Positions 1 to 3,060 are shown, counted from the first letter of the stretch. The stretch: DNA of 64,000 nt from Candidatus Zambryskiibacteriota bacterium (GCA_003233455.1 QILQ01000012.1:4441-68440); one strand, 5' to 3'. Notes: generated by a model not told the origin, from the sequence alone. Numbers and translations: made by a program.

Positions 1-210
1 TTTCGCCCCAGTGCCTCGGCAACAATCGCAGTTGTTCCGCTCCCCATAAATGGGTCAAAAACAATATCACCTTTATTACTTGCAGAAAGTAAGACTTGTT
101 GAATAAGTTTGAGTGGTTTTTGTGTGGGGTGTGCTTTCATTCCATTTTCATCTTTAAGTCTTTCTTTGCCCTTGCAAAGCCCAAAAATCCAATCTGTGTC
201 TTTCATTTGC
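1..210 (-). CDS. C-terminal module of beta-class N4/N6 DNA methyltransferase (AdoMet-binding motif I region), partial at window edge; separate ORF that re-starts at a duplicated junction motif
   Basis: Minus-strand ATG at 210 preceded by in-frame stop; translation [69 protein letters not shown] = HPTQKP + FxGSGTT motifs of CcrM/HinfI-type MTases; runs off window. Confidence 0.6.
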
Positions 211-228
211 TTTCTAAATTAAACATTC

Positions 229-1047
229 TTAATTTCTAGATGAAAGTTTTTTTACTGTTGTATTTTCAACAAGTGATTTCATTTGAGCTATGGCCACTAA
301 GCTCTCTTTTTGTGATATTTCTTGTCGAATAAGCTCAGCGTTCATACTTTCCAGATTTGCCAAACAAACGAGCTGGTAAACATTCGCCTCATCACGAATA
401 TTACCTTTTTTATTTTTATTTTTATTTTTCTCTCGCCACTGCTTTGCCGTCATTCCAAAAAGTGCCATATTTAAGACGTCGGCTTCATTAGTATAAACAA
501 ATTTAGTTTCTTTGGTTGTTACCAAGTGCGGAACGATATGTTTTTTAATTGCATCTGTATGAATTTTATAATTTATTTTTGATAGTGTCCTTTTTACATC
601 CCAACCAAGCAATAATCTTTTGTTTTCGTCTTCTTTTAGTCTTTGAAACTCTTTGATAATGTAGAGTTCAAATTCTGCAGAAATCCAAGATGCAAATTTA
701 AAAGCAATATCTTTATGAGCAAAAGTTCCACCATTTCTTCCAGATTTTGAAATAAGTCCAATTGCATTTGTATTATTTATCCACTTACTAGGCGAAAGAA
801 CAAAAGCATTTGTTCCTGCGTTTTTCCAAAACTGGTCAAATTCGACCAGTTTAAAATCTGGATTATTTATTTTTTCCCAAAAACCAAGAAATTCAATGGT
901 GTTTTTTGATCTCAACCAATTTTTCACTATATCCGCTGGGGCTTCTGCATTTTTATATTTAGCAATATCAGTAAGCGAAATAAAATCCTCCTCTTTTTGA
1001 GAGAAAAAATTGATATTTACATTTTTGACGATTAATTCTTTTTTCAT
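229..1047 (-). CDS. KilA-N domain protein (phage/virus-type DNA-binding N-terminal domain)
   Basis: 272 aa ORF; N-terminal LIVKNVNINFF...FISLTDIAKYKN...ADIVKNWLRSKNTIEFLGFWEKINNPDF resembles KilA-N domain proteins. Confidence 0.5.
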   Translation of the reverse strand: MKKELIVKNVNINFFSQKEEDFISLTDIAKYKNAEAPADIVKNWLRSKNTIEFLGFWEKINNPDFKLVEFDQFWKNAGTNAFVLSPSKWINNTNAIGLISKSGRNGGTFAHKDIAFKFASWISAEFELYIIKEFQRLKEDENKRLLLGWDVKRTLSKINYKIHTDAIKKHIVPHLVTTKETKFVYTNEADVLNMALFGMTAKQWREKNKNKNKKGNIRDEANVYQLVCLANLESMNAELIRQEISQKESLVAIAQMKSLVENTTVKKLSSRN

Positions 1048-1058
1048 AAATTATATAT

Positions 1059-1751
1059 TTAAGTATGTAAAAATATTTTATTGCGATGATATTCTAAGTA
1101 TTCCTCCCTTCCTGCAACTGGTAAATCTTCAAATCGTTGTCCCGAGTGTATATTCAATCTATCAATATTTTTCTGTGCAAGTGTCACAGAAATTATAATT
1201 TCTTTACTATTTGAGAATGTTATAAATCCTCTATCAAACAACTTATCAAATGTTGGGCTAAACAAAAAACCATTTTTTGTATCCAATCTTTCTCGATTGT
1301 CTGACATTACCCACGGCTTTATGTGGCTTGCGTTTAATATTCTTGGGTCATCAATTTTTGTAATGGGGCATCTTTTTAAGGTTAAAATTAATTTTTTTCT
1401 AAATTGAGCCTGTCCAATTCTTATTTTTGTAATAACATCTTTCGTTGTTATTTTAACTTCTAATTTTCCCTCTGGAAGAACCAAGTTATTTTCATCATAC
1501 TCAAAAAGAGCAAATGTTCCTTCTTCAATTTTTTTAAAAGATTTTTTATTTTTTATTTCCCGATACAAAACACCACGAATTCCAGCTTGCCATTCACGAG
1601 ACGTTTTTGCTTCGGGATAATATTTTTCGATTTCATTATAAATAATCTCCCAAGTGGCAATGCCACCATTGTCTTCAAGTAATTTTTTAATTGCTTCAAC
1701 TTTTGTCATATTCTTTTTCATTAACTTTATTTTTAATCTCAACAATATCAT
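1059..1751 (-). CDS. HNH endonuclease (HNH_2-like, N-terminal winged-helix-like region); candidate restriction or homing endonuclease
   Basis: C-terminal RCPITKIDDPRILNASHIKPW...NGFLFSPTFDKLFDRGFITF matches HNH_2 family signature (C..T......L.AsHIkPw...NGl.LsP..H..FD.G.i). Confidence 0.6.
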   Translation of the reverse strand: MILLRLKIKLMKKNMTKVEAIKKLLEDNGGIATWEIIYNEIEKYYPEAKTSREWQAGIRGVLYREIKNKKSFKKIEEGTFALFEYDENNLVLPEGKLEVKITTKDVITKIRIGQAQFRKKLILTLKRCPITKIDDPRILNASHIKPWVMSDNRERLDTKNGFLFSPTFDKLFDRGFITFSNSKEIIISVTLAQKNIDRLNIHSGQRFEDLPVAGREEYLEYHRNKIFLHT

Positions 1752-1867
1752 TGCGATTAATATCTAAAACTTCAGCTATGGTTTCAAAAAACATTCCATG
1801 ATCTCTTAAGTTTTCACAGGTCTCGGATGAACATCTGATTTGAATTGTAATTTTATCCATATCTTTA

Positions 1868-2427
1868 TTAAGCTATTTGATAATTAAAAACTTCTCCATT
1901 TACTTTTATTCTTTCGCCCCCGTTACAAATTGGAATATACCAATCACTCCGCATTTGTTTGTCGTCATTAAACGCTTTCATTGATTTATAATGAAAAGTA
2001 AATTTTGATTTTTGATTTTTGCTAGCCCAAATTAGTGTTTCTTGAGCATTATTAAAACGCGTGCCTTTAAAGTTTGGCATTGGATTTGTTTTAATCCACT
2101 GAATATCATTCAGAATCCATAACCCTAAGTCTTGCATAATTTTTCCAACACGAAAAATATTATGATAACTACCGATAATCCAAATTGCTCCGTCTTTTTT
2201 TAAATCCAGTCATATGTAAATTTGTCGTATTCGTCAAAAGACGAAAATTTATCCCACTTGTCATTTACCCCATCAACTTTTGATTGATTCGGGCGATATA
2301 AATCTCCTTGCAACTGTAAATTATATGGAGGATCCGCAAAAATTAAATCAATAGAATTATCTGGAATATTTTTTAATTCTTTTATGCAGTCGCCTTTGAT
2401 TATTTTGTTGAGTTTCTTTTTATCCAT
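1868..2427 (-). pseudogene. N-terminal/middle module of beta-class N4/N6 DNA methyltransferase (DPPY catalytic motif, [20 protein letters not shown]), interrupted by +1 frameshift at 2200-2209 and lacking the C-terminal AdoMet-binding module
   Basis: ORFs 2200..2427 (IFADPPYNL) and 1868..2137 ([28 protein letters not shown]); frame of second ORF stays open up to 2209 giving ...[22 protein letters not shown], i.e. one continuous MTase if one base is added in the TTT/A7 run. Confidence 0.6.
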
Positions 2428-2432
2428 AATAT

Positions 2433-2645
2433 TTATTTTAATAATTCATTAATTTTAACATCAAGCGCGCTGGCGACTTTTTCCATTGTACTAATTGTAA
2501 GGTTTTGCTTTCCATTCTCAACATTGCTGATATACGCTCTATCTAAATCTAACGCTCGGCAAATGTCGCCTTGCGACATTCCTTTTTCCAAACGAATCTT
2601 TTTCATATTGTCTCCAAACTTTTTTGCTGTATTTTGACTCATATT
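2433..2645 (-). CDS. XRE-family HTH protein, candidate controller (C) protein of the RM module
   Basis: [69 protein letters not shown]; small HTH_XRE immediately upstream of and co-oriented with the MTase; N-terminal 80 aa of the long ORF call is Arg/Pro-rich read-through of a GC-rich non-coding region. Confidence 0.55.
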
Positions 2646-2670
2646 TTTAGTTAAAGTTATCAATACAGAC

Positions 2671-2722
2671 ATTATATCATGGTCTTGTGTTTTGACACAA
2701 TGATAATTTACAACACAAGTGT
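2671..2722 (-). promoter_or_regulatory. Promoter (-10 TATAAT) with two palindromic operator-like boxes (C-box-like) upstream of the C gene
   Basis: Minus-strand TATAAT at 2676..2671; palindromes TTGTGTtttgACACAA (2685-2700) overlapping the -35 position and ACACaaGTGT (2713-2722). Confidence 0.35.
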
Positions 2723-2739
2723 AAAAATATGATAGCGAA

Positions 2740-2986
2740 CCCGAACGACAAAACCATTTCCTTACCTTTCTTTTCTTTCGGTGGAGGGGTCTGGGGAGGA
2801 GCCGAACAAAAAATTGAAAGGAAATGGTTTTGGTCGGGTGGTCGCCCGAGGTACGAGGGCGACGGTGCGGTGGAGTTGAGAGAGTTACCACTAAACTCTG
2901 CCTGCGGAGAGAGTGGTCAGAATTATTTCAGGCTCTCGCCGTGGGGCGTGCGCCCGCAGGTGCACGCATTAAACAGCACGCACTTC
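2740..2986. ncRNA. GC-rich, hairpin-dense ~250 bp element of unknown identity (candidate structured RNA or cluster of palindromic repeat elements)
   Basis: Strong local GC excess in an AT-rich genome; nested perfect stems e.g. CGACAAAACCATTTCC/GGAAATGGTTTTGGTCG, GTCGCCC/GGGCGAC, CCTGCGG/CCGCAGG, GCGTGC/GCACGC; six-frame ORFs here are Arg/Pro/Gly-rich junk. Confidence 0.3.
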
Positions 2987-3060
2987 TGGTGCGGGATGGG
3001 GTAATCGAAACCCCGACTCAAGTTTGGAAAACTCGCATTTTACCACTAAACTAATCCCGC
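2987..3060 (-). tRNA. tRNA-Gly (anticodon UCC), CCA encoded
   Basis: GCGGGAT-TA-GTTT-AGTGGTA-AAAT-G-CGAGT-TTTCCAA-ACTTG-AGTC-GGGGT-TTCGATT-ACCCC-ATCCCGC-A-CCA cloverleaf. Confidence 0.85.

What the first reader, a model, noticed from the sequence alone, without database searches (positions are those of the whole stretch)
1..3060. Restriction-modification-like island at the tRNA-Gly 3' end whose methyltransferase gene is split by an HNH endonuclease + KilA-N insertion, with a duplicated junction motif
Reading the minus strand from the tRNA-Gly 3' end leftwards, the genes are: an XRE-type controller (C) gene with operator-like palindromes, then the N-terminal two thirds of a CcrM/HinfI-type beta-class MTase (DPPY; [11 protein letters not shown]; ...[17 protein letters not shown], then stop), then an HNH_2-type endonuclease, then a KilA-N protein, then a separate ORF that restarts with [31 protein letters not shown]...[10 protein letters not shown]. 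In intact enzymes of this family these parts are contiguous (...RSDW.[21 protein letters not shown]...DPFxGSGTT). The gene has therefore been cut exactly at the ERLK segment by about 1.65 kb carrying the endonuclease and KilA-N genes. Both halves keep a divergent copy of the roughly 19-aa junction motif. This resembles gene splitting by free-standing homing endonucleases (for example phage nrdA split by mobE), or a split two-subunit methyltransferase (M.AquI-like). It could also be a decayed RM system in which the HNH protein is the restriction enzyme. The island abuts the 3' end of tRNA-Gly, a classical integration site; any integrase would lie left of the window.
Basis: partly seen in the sequence, partly recalled or inferred. 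Interest (0 to 1): 0.8.

Follow-up and report, generated by a model that had tools for sequence, protein, structure and literature searches.

The report
Gutted restriction-modification operon, not split gene
The two methyltransferase "halves" are leftovers of two different neighbouring methyltransferase genes of a restriction-modification operon, whose middle was replaced by a mobile nuclease cassette; it is a fairly ordinary wreck, except that the small C-terminal leftover is still kept intact by selection.

Summary
They are a C/XRE gene with palindromes, N-terminal MTase pieces, an HNH_2 gene, a KilA-N gene, a C-terminal MTase ORF, and an overlapping "junction motif".

The main interpretation fails. 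The N pieces belong to a CcrM-like MTase, M1 (83-95% identical to intact 358-aa relatives). The C piece belongs to a different short MTase, M2 (77-93% to intact M2, only 59-61% to M1).

One metagenome locus (L044) carries the intact operon C-M1-R(HpyAIV-like)-M2. The window is that operon with the 3' part of M1, the R gene and the 5' two thirds of M2 replaced by orf54, a winged-helix-HNH nuclease and KilA-N. M1' is a pseudogene with a 19-nt frameshifting deletion.

The same nuclease gene sits between R genes and truncated MTase genes in many genomes across phyla. By architecture it resembles modification-dependent (type IV) nucleases.

One result was unexpected. The roughly 95-aa MTase C-terminal remnant (M_C) has dN/dS of about 0.02-0.04 across loci that share the same truncation junction. 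It also forms a family of short ORFs.

Verdict: real feature, reinterpreted, moderately interesting.

The parts
2987..3060 (-). tRNA-Gly (anticodon tcc). The locus begins at its 3' side.
   Evidence: ARAGORN. Rfam tRNA 66 bits. A homologous cassette in L001 also lies next to a tRNA-Gly that is 80% identical.
2733..2984 (.). GC-rich (57%) structured element of unknown kind between the tRNA and the C gene. Probably not part of the RM remnant.
   Evidence: GC profile. Conserved in L001 13179-13499 at 79-97% nt identity, with compensatory stem changes. Fold z-score -5.2 on both strands. No Rfam match.
2671..2725 (-). Promoter-like site (GTGTCA-16-TATAAT with TG) overlapped by TTGTGT/ACACAA palindromes. 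Candidate C-box operator.
   Evidence: Function is inferred.
2433..2642 (-). C (controller) protein, XRE/HTH_3, 69 aa.
   Evidence: Pfam HTH_3 2.3e-15. PADLOC RM Control_protein 1.6e-18. 58% identical to the C protein of the intact operon L039.
2200..2427 (-). M1' piece 1: the first 75 codons of a CcrM-like beta-class MTase (DPPY motif). It ends at a stop created by a frameshift.
   Evidence: PF01555 positions 1-36. 83% identical to P0002 residues 6-75. 19-nt deletion between 2203 and 2202 relative to L003 and L044.
1892..2209 (-). M1' piece 2: M1 residues about 82-186, in a shifted frame.
   Evidence: PF01555 positions 43-159. 95% identical to P0002 residues 82-185. Follows the intact genes up to ...ERIKVNGE.
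1868..1891 (-). Tail VFNYQIA* of the M1' ORF. Probably M1 codons about 251-257, left after an in-frame internal deletion. Its stop lies 7 nt before the orf54 start.
   Evidence: Alignments A2 and A6. Similar tails occur in L003, L020 and L022. The origin of the tail is inferred.
1696..1860 (-). orf54, a small conserved ORF of unknown function. Its 3' end overlaps the HNH start.
   Evidence: Homologs lie directly upstream of the nuclease gene in L003, L010, L011 and L022. No Pfam, PADLOC or NCBIfam match.
1059..1709 (-). Winged-helix + HNH nuclease, 216 aa. The mobile core of the cassette.
229..1047 (-). KilA-N protein, 272 aa. Matches the candidate single-gene defence protein PDC-S22.
   Evidence: Pfam KilA-N 3.6e-21. 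PADLOC PDC-S22 1.2e-123 over the full length. Replaced by a Bro-N/PDC-S13 gene in L002, L005, L007, L008, L038 and L123.
1..206 (-). M_C: the C-terminal remnant (motif X HPTQKP, motif I [9 protein letters not shown]) of a second, short beta-class MTase (M2). The ORF is 96 aa and continues 87 nt beyond the window.
   Evidence: PF01555 positions 144-204. Identical to P0123 over the 68 residues visible in the window. 93% identical to the C-terminus of the intact M2 of L039. Aligns to CcrM 6pbd residues 175-261. dN/dS 0.018-0.042.

Best explanation
The locus is the remnant of a C-controlled restriction-modification operon of the GANTC family. Its original layout was C - M1 (CcrM-like MTase with a RAMA domain) - R (HpyAIV-like) - M2 (short HinfI-like MTase).

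The centre of the operon has been replaced by a three-gene cassette. The lost part is the 3' part of M1, the whole R gene and the 5' two thirds of M2. The cassette is orf54, a winged-helix-HNH nuclease and a KilA-N protein.

The two MTase 'halves' are therefore the outer ends of two different paralogous genes. Their roughly 20-aa overlap is only where the two deletion end points happen to fall in a conserved motif.

Shown:
- The ancestry of each piece, and the existence of intact reference operons.
- M1' is a pseudogene, and a recently made one. It has a 19-nt frameshifting deletion and an in-frame internal deletion.
- The nuclease gene recurs between R genes and truncated M genes.
- The nuclease, KilA-N and M_C ORFs are intact and under purifying selection.

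Inferred:
- The winged-helix-HNH protein is a modification-dependent (type IV-like) nuclease.
- It is now transcribed from the C-box promoter through the M1' leader.
- Loss of the neighbouring N6-adenine MTases avoids self-restriction.
- KilA-N (PDC-S22) is an independent defence-island gene.
- M_C, which is a two-strand half of the AdoMet-binding fold, is retained because it has acquired or kept a function that needs a partner protein.
For: Different ancestry of the pieces.
- Piece identities to P0002 are 81%, 91% and 61%.
- tblastn of P0002 on the window gives 82.9% (residues 6-75), 95.2% (82-185) and 58.6% (163-230).
- The M2 of L003 is 56% identical to the N pieces and 76.8% identical to the C piece.
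- The M2 of L039 is 93% identical to M_C.

Intact operons.
- L044 is C-M1(356 aa)-R.HpyAIV-like(285 aa)-M2(257 aa).
- L039 and L042 are C-R(PF09520)-Dam-like M-M2. The NCBIfam HpyAIV hit, E 1.6e-67, was obtained on the L020 homolog.

Intermediate state.
- L003 is M1(1-244 plus tail)-orf54-HNH-M2(from residue 21).

Shared block.
- Window 1718-1 matches L001 10007-11734 at 85.6% nt. In L001 the block lies behind a REase gene, not behind an MTase gene.

Recurrence of the nuclease gene.
- M1 fragments truncated at residues about 152-244 lie upstream of the nuclease gene in L003, L010, L020, L021 and L022.
- M2 fragments starting at residues 21-188 lie downstream in L001-L003, L005, L007, L008, L013, L015, L035, L038 and L123.
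- No locus has an intact adjacent MTase.

M1' pseudogene.
- The 19-nt deletion is shown.
- M1' is close to intact relatives: dN 0.08-0.09.

Nuclease architecture.
-.
- wH-HNH enzymes are m6A-dependent type IV enzymes, and adjacent MTases were seen inactivated by a frameshift (PMC11037411).
- 6YEX is the modification-dependent enzyme VcaM4I (PMC7897488).
- The family is nearly absent from 50,697 phage records.

Selection.
- M_C has 2 nonsynonymous against 20 synonymous changes versus L001 (binomial p 8e-12). The KilA-N-to-M_C junction is shared by the window, L001 and L035.
- The AdoMet motifs are invariant in 26 short homologs.
Against: - No biochemical data exist. The modification dependence of the nuclease is inferred only from domain architecture.
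- The N-domain's best structural matches are generic winged helices, not DpnI or HhiV4I. The Pfam HARE-HTH hit is below its cut-off.
- The family has K or R where VcaM4I has the last His of the DHLFD motif.
- In sister loci an apparently intact HinfI/TdeIII-type REase, under purifying selection, coexists with the cassette and has no visible MTase. The conflict-avoidance logic does not explain this unless another MTase exists elsewhere in those genomes.
- The intact L039 operon nests among the cassette-bearing loci in the R-gene comparison: dS 0.51 against 0.82-0.85. Recombination with intact alleles could therefore partly mimic selection on M_C.
- The window's C protein resembles that of L039 (58%) rather than that of L044, so the exact ancestor was itself a mosaic.
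Confidence: 0.8

Rival explanations
1. A single CcrM/HinfI-type MTase gene was split at the ERLK segment by insertion of a free-standing homing endonuclease (HNH) plus KilA-N, with duplication of the target.
For: N- and C-terminal pieces flank the insert and overlap on PF01555 positions 144-159. The nuclease gene has a sharp 5' boundary at its ATG in every context.
Against: - The pieces are paralogous, not allelic: 95% against 59% identity to the same intact gene.
- The right-hand block exists without any N-terminal piece (L001, L035), and the left-hand block exists without this C piece.
- The intact operon has an R gene between M1 and M2.
- Truncation points vary from residue 152 to 244 in M1 and from 21 to 188 in M2.
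- The N piece is frameshifted.
- The family is absent from phages.
Confidence: 0.04
2. A selfish, homing-like cassette. The wH-HNH nuclease cleaves intact RM-operon alleles. The cassette then spreads by recombination through the conserved flanks (the 5' part of the R gene or of M1, and the 3' part of M2), replacing the MTase and R core each time.
For: - The cassette lies in the same relative position in RM operons of two unrelated R types and in several phyla.
- At least 3 left-junction types and at least 6 right-junction types exist.
- The intact L039 nests among invaded alleles in the R gene.
- Upstream M2 remnants are still 77-88% identical to intact M2, which suggests recent independent events.
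Against: - There is no defined common insertion site.
- The nuclease is as diverged between loci as the flanks are (dS about 0.8), so there is no sign of a recent sweep.
- It also occurs far from any MTase, for example after recA in L006 and in L014 and L016-L019.
- Its architecture matches modification readers fused to HNH rather than known homing enzymes.
- It is almost absent from phage genomes.
Confidence: 0.12
3. A functional split (two-subunit) MTase. The N-terminal M1' product and M_C assemble into an active enzyme, as in M.AquI-like systems.
For: - Together the pieces cover all the motifs: DPPY in the N piece, and HPTQKP and FxGxG in M_C.
- M_C is under strong purifying selection.
- Its predicted fold is an incomplete half-Rossmann that should need a partner.
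- N-terminal fragments keep their reading frame in 5 other loci and show dN/dS of 0.09.
Against: - In this window the N part is frameshifted by a 19-nt deletion.
- M_C-bearing loci such as L001, L035, L038 and L123 have no N-terminal fragment within the DNA fetched around the cassette, up to about 10 kb per side.
- The pieces come from paralogs that are only about 55-60% identical.
Confidence: 0.05
4. A plain decayed RM system in which the HNH protein was the cognate type II restriction enzyme of M1 and/or M2, and everything is now drifting.
For: The HNH_2 domain also hits PADLOC type II REase models at 5e-14 and 3e-13. HARE-HTH nuclease fusions have been described as restriction enzymes of N6A RM systems (PMC4738411).
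Against: - No locus pairs the nuclease with an intact MTase.
- The intact operons use HpyAIV-like or HinfI/TdeIII-like R genes instead.
- The nuclease, KilA-N and M_C are under purifying selection, with dN/dS of 0.02-0.1, so they are not drifting.
Confidence: 0.08

Closest known systems
Winged-helix-HNH (and PUA-wH-HNH) modification-dependent type IV restriction endonucleases (Helbrecht et al. 2024, PMC11037411); EVE-HNH VcaM4I (PMC7897488)
   Same: - An N-terminal small DNA-reader-type winged helix fused to a C-terminal McrA/VcaM4I-type HNH domain.
- About 216 aa, against 224-283 aa for the described wH-HNH enzymes.
- The neighbouring N6A/N4C MTase genes are inactivated, a situation those authors noted as 'avoidance of genomic conflict'.
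   Different: - No sequence-level link of the N-domain to the DpnI or HhiV4I wH was shown. Pfam places it weakly with HARE-HTH.
- The inactivated neighbours are CcrM/HinfI-family MTases, not Dam.
- The gene sits inside the RM operon in place of its core, with a conserved small upstream ORF and a KilA-N or Bro-N partner.
- Activity and specificity are untested.
C-controlled type II RM operons of the GANTC family (HinfI, HpyAIV; CcrM-like MTases)
   Same: A C protein with a palindromic operator-like promoter, a CcrM-like M1 fragment and an M.HinfI-like M2 fragment. The intact relatives L044, L039 and L042 show the parent architecture.
   Different: There is no restriction gene and no intact MTase in the window. 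The specificity (GANTC) is only inferred from family names. The parent operons carry two MTases, which is unusual for a palindromic site.
Gene splitting by free-standing homing endonucleases (for example mobE in phage nrdA) and split MTases (M.AquI)
   Same: A nuclease gene lies between an N-terminal and a C-terminal fragment of the same enzyme family.
   Different: The fragments come from two different genes. One is a pseudogene. There is no uninterrupted allele. The nuclease family is not phage-borne.
PADLOC phage-defence candidates PDC-S22 (KilA-N) and PDC-S13 (Bro-N)
   Same: Full-length HMM matches of 1e-123 and 2.5e-120. The two genes are interchangeable in the same slot of the cassette.
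   Different: Here they are specifically linked to the wH-HNH gene and to an MTase C-terminal mini-ORF. A stand-alone PDC-S13 copy also exists at window 60097-60933.

Membership tests
Beta-class N6A/N4C DNA methyltransferase (PF01555, CcrM/HinfI group), as an active enzyme | Motif IV (DPPY) and motifs X/I (HPTQKP, FxGxG) in one continuous polypeptide | tested here: not met
   DPPY lies in piece 1 (2200-2427). Motifs X and I lie in M_C (1-206). The two are separated by 2 kb, a frameshift and three other genes.
Beta-class N6A/N4C DNA methyltransferase (PF01555, CcrM/HinfI group), as an active enzyme | C-terminal RAMA domain (PF18755) present in CcrM-like relatives | tested here: not met
   Intact relatives carry PF18755. 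No such sequence is present in the window: P0002 residues 231-358 find nothing.
Host gene split by a free-standing homing endonuclease | Both flanking fragments derive from the same gene | tested here: not met
   95% against 59% identity to the same intact gene. The C piece is 93% identical to a different MTase.
Host gene split by a free-standing homing endonuclease | An uninterrupted allele exists with the same flanks | tested here: not met
   The nearest intact arrangement (L044) has a whole R gene plus two complete MTase genes between the corresponding points.
Host gene split by a free-standing homing endonuclease | The endonuclease belongs to a phage-borne or intron-associated homing family | tested here: not met
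   Only 2 distant domain hits in 50,697 phage records.
C-controlled type II RM system | C protein with operator palindromes upstream | tested here: met
   PADLOC Control_protein 1.6e-18. Promoter-like site and TTGTGT/ACACAA palindromes. Binding was not tested.
C-controlled type II RM system | Intact cognate MTase and a type II REase | tested here: not met
   No intact MTase. No HinfI/TdeIII-like or HpyAIV-like sequence anywhere in the 64-kb window.
wH-HNH modification-dependent (type IV) restriction endonuclease | N-terminal winged-helix reader domain | tested here: met
wH-HNH modification-dependent (type IV) restriction endonuclease | McrA/VcaM4I-type HNH catalytic domain | tested here: met
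   PDB 6yex with E 1.1e-21 over residues 86-213. HNH_2. One motif His is K or R in this family.
wH-HNH modification-dependent (type IV) restriction endonuclease | The reader domain is homologous to the DpnI/HhiV4I m6A-sensing wH | tested here: inconclusive
wH-HNH modification-dependent (type IV) restriction endonuclease | Cleavage depends on DNA modification | not testable with these tools
   Needs expression in hosts with and without the MTase, or in vitro assays.
tRNA-targeted integrative island | Integrase gene, and a direct repeat of the tRNA 3' end at the far border | tested here: inconclusive
   No repeat of the tRNA-Gly 3' end in the window. No GC deviation: 29-31% against 32%. The far border and any integrase would lie left of the window, and the contig could not be fetched.
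PDC-S22 candidate defence gene | Full-length match to the PADLOC model | tested here: met
   E 1.2e-123 over residues 2-269 of 272. Defence activity was not tested.

The most novel reading that the evidence does not exclude
The MTase remnants are not debris but domesticated half-methyltransferases. M_C is an AdoMet-binding half-Rossmann of about 95 aa. In other loci the N-terminal DPPY halves may play the same role. Under this reading M_C is a working subunit of a composite defence cassette (REase - wH-HNH - KilA-N or Bro-N - M_C). It could act as an AdoMet sensor or regulator of the nucleases, or as a partner that completes a fold in trans. The cassette would then spread by replacing the core of GANTC-family RM operons across phyla.
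Probability: 0.25. Interest if true: 0.7.

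Novelty: new variant of a known kind. Interest (0 to 1): 0.5.

Why it matters
This case shows how a plausible 'split gene' picture can arise from a central replacement inside an operon that carries two paralogous genes.

It also documents, with intact and intermediate reference loci, a recurrent route by which reader-nuclease (type IV-like) genes take over RM operons and their C-controlled promoters while removing the MTases they may conflict with.

If the selected roughly 95-aa MTase remnant is truly functional, it would be an example of a defence system recycling half of an enzyme fold. 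It would also give a testable handle on how KilA-N/Bro-N 'candidate' defence genes work.

Tried and rejected
1. Extending the contig leftwards.
- Exact-protein look-ups for KilA-N, HNH (230 aa and 216 aa), InfC and M_C all failed, although the clusters report a 68,580-bp contig.
- The integrase question and the far-border question therefore stay open.

2. Looking for a recombination breakpoint inside the HNH gene.
- I used sliding-window identity against type (a) and type (b) loci.
- It showed only a weak trend and no clear breakpoint.

3. Identifying the GC-rich element with Rfam, in both the window and L001.
- Nothing was found.

4. Using a metagenome scan with the M_C alignment to survey contexts.
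- The degenerate patterns mostly pulled in ordinary full-length CcrM-like genes. Only 6 close loci came back, but these supplied the intact operons.

5. Distant short 'M_C-like' ORFs (P0237, P0239).
- These turned out to be frameshifted or isolated fragments, so they are not evidence for a universal split point.
- The common M(K/R)D..W start is simply a conserved in-frame Met.

6. GANTC avoidance in the window.
- Not seen: 155 sites, mid-range among same-composition words.

7. Programmed frameshift or homopolymer error as an explanation for the M1' break.
- Rejected, because the lesion is a 19-nt deletion.

8. Treating the shared deletion end point of the window and L022 as common descent.
- Rejected, because the M1' sequences belong to different clades: dN 0.20 against 0.08-0.09 to CPR genes.

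Full report
**1. What is in the sequence**

Everything below reads on the minus strand, leftwards from tRNA-Gly (2987-3060). The window is 32% GC. Its best protein matches are Patescibacteria/CPR.

- A 57% GC structured segment, about 2733-2984.
- A promoter-like site (2698-2671), overlapped by TTGTGT/ACACAA palindromes.
- A 69-aa XRE gene, 2433-2642. It matches HTH_3 and the PADLOC RM control-protein model with E 1.6e-18.
- Five nucleotides further on, an MTase ORF of 75 codons with DPPY (2427-2200).
- The continuation of that MTase in another frame, about 2209-1868, ending ...[15 protein letters not shown].
- A 54-aa ORF, 1860-1696.
- An HNH_2 gene. Its conserved start is the ATG at 1709 and it ends at 1059.
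- A KilA-N gene, 1047-229.
- An ORF starting at the ATG at 206 that reads [31 protein letters not shown]...DPFMGSGTT and runs off the window.

On the Pfam PF01555 profile the three MTase pieces cover positions 1-36, 43-159 and 144-204.

**2. The two halves are not one gene**

- Intact relatives of the N pieces are 356-358-aa proteins with PF01555 plus a RAMA domain.
- Aligned to one of them (P0002), piece 1 is 81% identical, piece 2 is 91% and the C piece only 61%.
- tblastn of P0002 on the window gives 82.9%, 95.2% and 58.6% for the three pieces.
- In the other direction, a short MTase of another lineage (M2, from locus L003) is 56% identical to the N pieces and 76.8% identical to the C piece.
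- The intact 259-aa M2 of metagenome locus L039 is 93% identical to the C piece.
- The N pieces follow the intact M1 genes codon for codon up to ...ERIKVNGE and then stop matching.
- The N part also lacks 19 nt (AAAGAATGCAAAAGAGTGT in L003) between window positions 2203 and 2202. That shifts the frame, so it is a pseudogene.
- Its amino-acid distance to intact CPR genes is small (dN 0.08-0.09), so the inactivation is recent.

**3. The parent operon and the intermediates**

- Locus L044 carries C - M1 (356 aa) - an HpyAIV-like REase (285 aa) - M2 (257 aa). The Bacteroidota homolog of that REase scores 1.6e-67 on the NCBIfam HpyAIV model.
- Locus L003 carries M1 (residues 1-244 plus a short tail) - an orf54 homolog - HNH - M2 (from residue 21).
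- The window is the same arrangement with larger losses. M1 stops at residue 186 plus the tail, and M2 starts at residue 163. KilA-N has been added.
- An N-terminal fragment on the left and a C-terminal fragment on the right are exactly what a central replacement in a tandem pair of paralogs leaves behind.
- Truncation points elsewhere range from residues about 152-244 for M1 and 21-188 for M2. The near-complementarity seen in this window is therefore not special.

**4. The cassette in other contexts**

- The window from 1718 to 1 aligns continuously with L001 at 85.6% nt identity. The alignment starts about 9 nt before the HNH ATG.
- In L001, L035-L037, L038 and L123 the same order, HNH - KilA-N or Bro-N - M_C, follows a PF09520 (HinfI/TdeIII-type) REase gene and not an MTase gene.
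- Intact versions of that operon (L039, L042) are C - R - Dam-like MTase - M2. The REase of L001 matches that of L039 at 96% up to residue 257 and then has a new tail. There, the cassette replaced the end of R, the whole Dam-like gene and the 5' part of M2.
- In Bacteroidota loci L020-L023, the same winged-helix N-domain is fused to a different C-terminal domain. That gene sits between a truncated M1 and an HpyAIV-family REase.
- In L024 it sits between a PF09520-like REase and a 5'-truncated Dam-like MTase.
- In L009 it follows an 83-aa N-terminal fragment of yet another MTase.
- It also occurs away from any MTase, for example after recA in L006.
- Upstream sequence is unrelated between contexts right up to the conserved ATGACAAAAGT start.
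- No fetched locus pairs the nuclease with an intact adjacent MTase.

**5. What the nuclease is**

- The C-terminal 130 residues match the HNH domain of PDB 6yex with E 1e-21. 6YEX is the EVE-HNH modification-dependent enzyme VcaM4I (PMC7897488).
- Helbrecht et al. 2024 showed that wH-HNH proteins of 224-283 aa are m6A-dependent type IV enzymes. They noted adjacent MTases inactivated by frameshift as 'avoidance of genomic conflict' (PMC11037411).
- HARE-HTH nuclease fusions are known to be linked to N6A RM systems (PMC4738411).
- The family is practically absent from phage genomes.
- I therefore read the protein as a type IV-like reader-nuclease. This is an inference from architecture and context only. 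Specificity is unknown.
- The coexistence with an apparently functional PF09520 REase in sister loci is not explained by this reading.

**6. KilA-N and Bro-N**

- The KilA-N protein matches the PADLOC candidate PDC-S22 over its full length (1e-123).
- The Bro-N protein that replaces it elsewhere matches PDC-S13 (2.5e-120).
- A stand-alone PDC-S13 homolog also lies at window 60097-60933.
- These look like interchangeable defence-island genes.

**7. The unexpected part: M_C**

- The window, L001 and L035 share the same KilA-N-stop / 21-nt spacer / ATG junction, so the truncation predates their divergence.
- Since then M_C has accumulated 20 synonymous and 2 nonsynonymous differences between the window and L001. 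That gives dN/dS 0.018. The binomial p against neutrality is 8e-12.
- The other two pairs give 0.03 and 0.04. These values are lower than for HNH (0.05-0.10), KilA-N (0.06-0.10) and the REase (0.04).
- The 120 best database matches to M_C are all 69-158 aa.
- In the library of cluster representatives, every match above 68% identity is a short ORF. The nearest full-length protein is 60% identical.
- In 26 short homologs, motif X (HPTQKP), motif I (D-PF-G-GTT) and motif II are invariant or nearly so.
- M_C aligns to CcrM residues 175-261. Its AF2 model is a moderately confident (pLDDT 71) helix-strand-helix-strand-helix unit with a disordered N-terminus. That is half of a Rossmann fold, which should need a partner.

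Caveats on the selection argument:
- In the R gene the intact L039 operon nests among the cassette-bearing loci: dS 0.51 against 0.82-0.85. Alleles therefore recombine through the flanks.
- In the Bro-N loci the dispensable upstream M2 remnants are still 77-88% identical to intact M2. One is frameshifted and one has lost its start. Those truncations are therefore recent and independent.
- The selection argument rests mainly on the KilA-N subgroup.
- N-terminal M1 fragments in five other loci keep their reading frame through to the tail's stop, which abuts the next gene's start. L020 against L021 gives dN/dS 0.09. This fits either function, translational coupling, or recent truncation.

**8. 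Island questions**

- There is no repeat of the tRNA-Gly 3' end in the window.
- There is no compositional anomaly.
- The homologous cassette in L001 is also next to a tRNA-Gly, whereas in L035 it follows pyruvate kinase.
- Whether an integrase lies to the left could not be tested.

**9. Verdict**

The feature is real, and its main interpretation is replaced. It is a gutted C-M1-R-M2 restriction-modification operon whose core was replaced by an orf54 / wH-HNH / KilA-N cassette. It is not a split gene.

It is a new variant of a known situation, namely type IV-like reader-nucleases next to inactivated MTases. Two points are worth following up:
- the recurrent, cross-phylum replacement of RM-operon cores by this cassette;
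- the selectively maintained half-methyltransferase M_C.

Noticed in passing
window 2733-2984 (and L001 13179-13499): A GC-rich (57% against 32%) strongly structured element lies directly after the tRNA-Gly 3' end. It is conserved at 79-97% nt identity in a distant CPR genome, with compensatory stem changes and a roughly 60-nt insertion. There it lies in the opposite orientation, on the far side of the homologous island. Fold z-score is -5.2 on both strands. There is no Rfam match and no other copy in the window or in the 118 loci fetched by then. It may be an unknown ncRNA or an island-end element.
   Followed up: partly
window 60097-60933 (-): A stand-alone Bro-N protein, 84% identical to the Bro-N/PDC-S13 gene that occupies the KilA-N slot of the cassette in other genomes. 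Here it lies next to tRNA-Arg and a 386-aa protein of unknown function, with no MTase fragment nearby.
   Followed up: partly
L044 2294-5279; L039 261-3230; L042 2352-5288: The intact parent operons carry two MTases around or after one REase: CcrM-like M1 + HpyAIV-like R + short M2 in L044, and PF09520 R + Dam-like M + short M2 in L039 and L042. Two MTases are unexpected if the site is the palindrome GANTC, which suggests an asymmetric or composite specificity.
   Followed up: no
L001/L035/L039 REase genes: In the REase gene the intact operon L039 is closer to the cassette-bearing L001 (dS 0.51) than L001 is to the cassette-bearing L035 (0.85). This implies allele exchange between intact and invaded operons through the conserved flanks.
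   Followed up: partly
L020 9524-10000, L021 4974-5516, L022 488-1060, L010 2492-3136, L003 3546-4325: N-terminal M1 fragments upstream of the nuclease gene all keep their reading frame through different internal deletions, down to a short common tail whose stop abuts the next start codon. L020 against L021 gives dN/dS 0.09. This may reflect translational coupling or functional N-terminal half-MTases.
   Followed up: partly
window 1696-1860 (-): orf54 is a small ORF with no family match. It is conserved immediately upstream of, and overlapping, the nuclease gene in CPR, Gammaproteobacteria and Bacteroidota loci. It may be a regulator or an immunity partner of the nuclease.
   Followed up: no
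window 3778-4390 (-) and 61665-62133 (-): Two toxin-antitoxin-type pairs. One is HepT-like RNase plus an MNT nucleotidyltransferase. The other is a HicA toxin with a small upstream partner that has no Pfam match.
   Followed up: no
L120 1678-5270: Another RM-like locus with a Bro-N gene embedded between a D12 MTase and a PLD-family nuclease, followed by a frameshifted beta-class MTase (178 + 89 aa). This is a further case of Bro-N genes sitting inside RM loci next to broken MTases.
   Followed up: no
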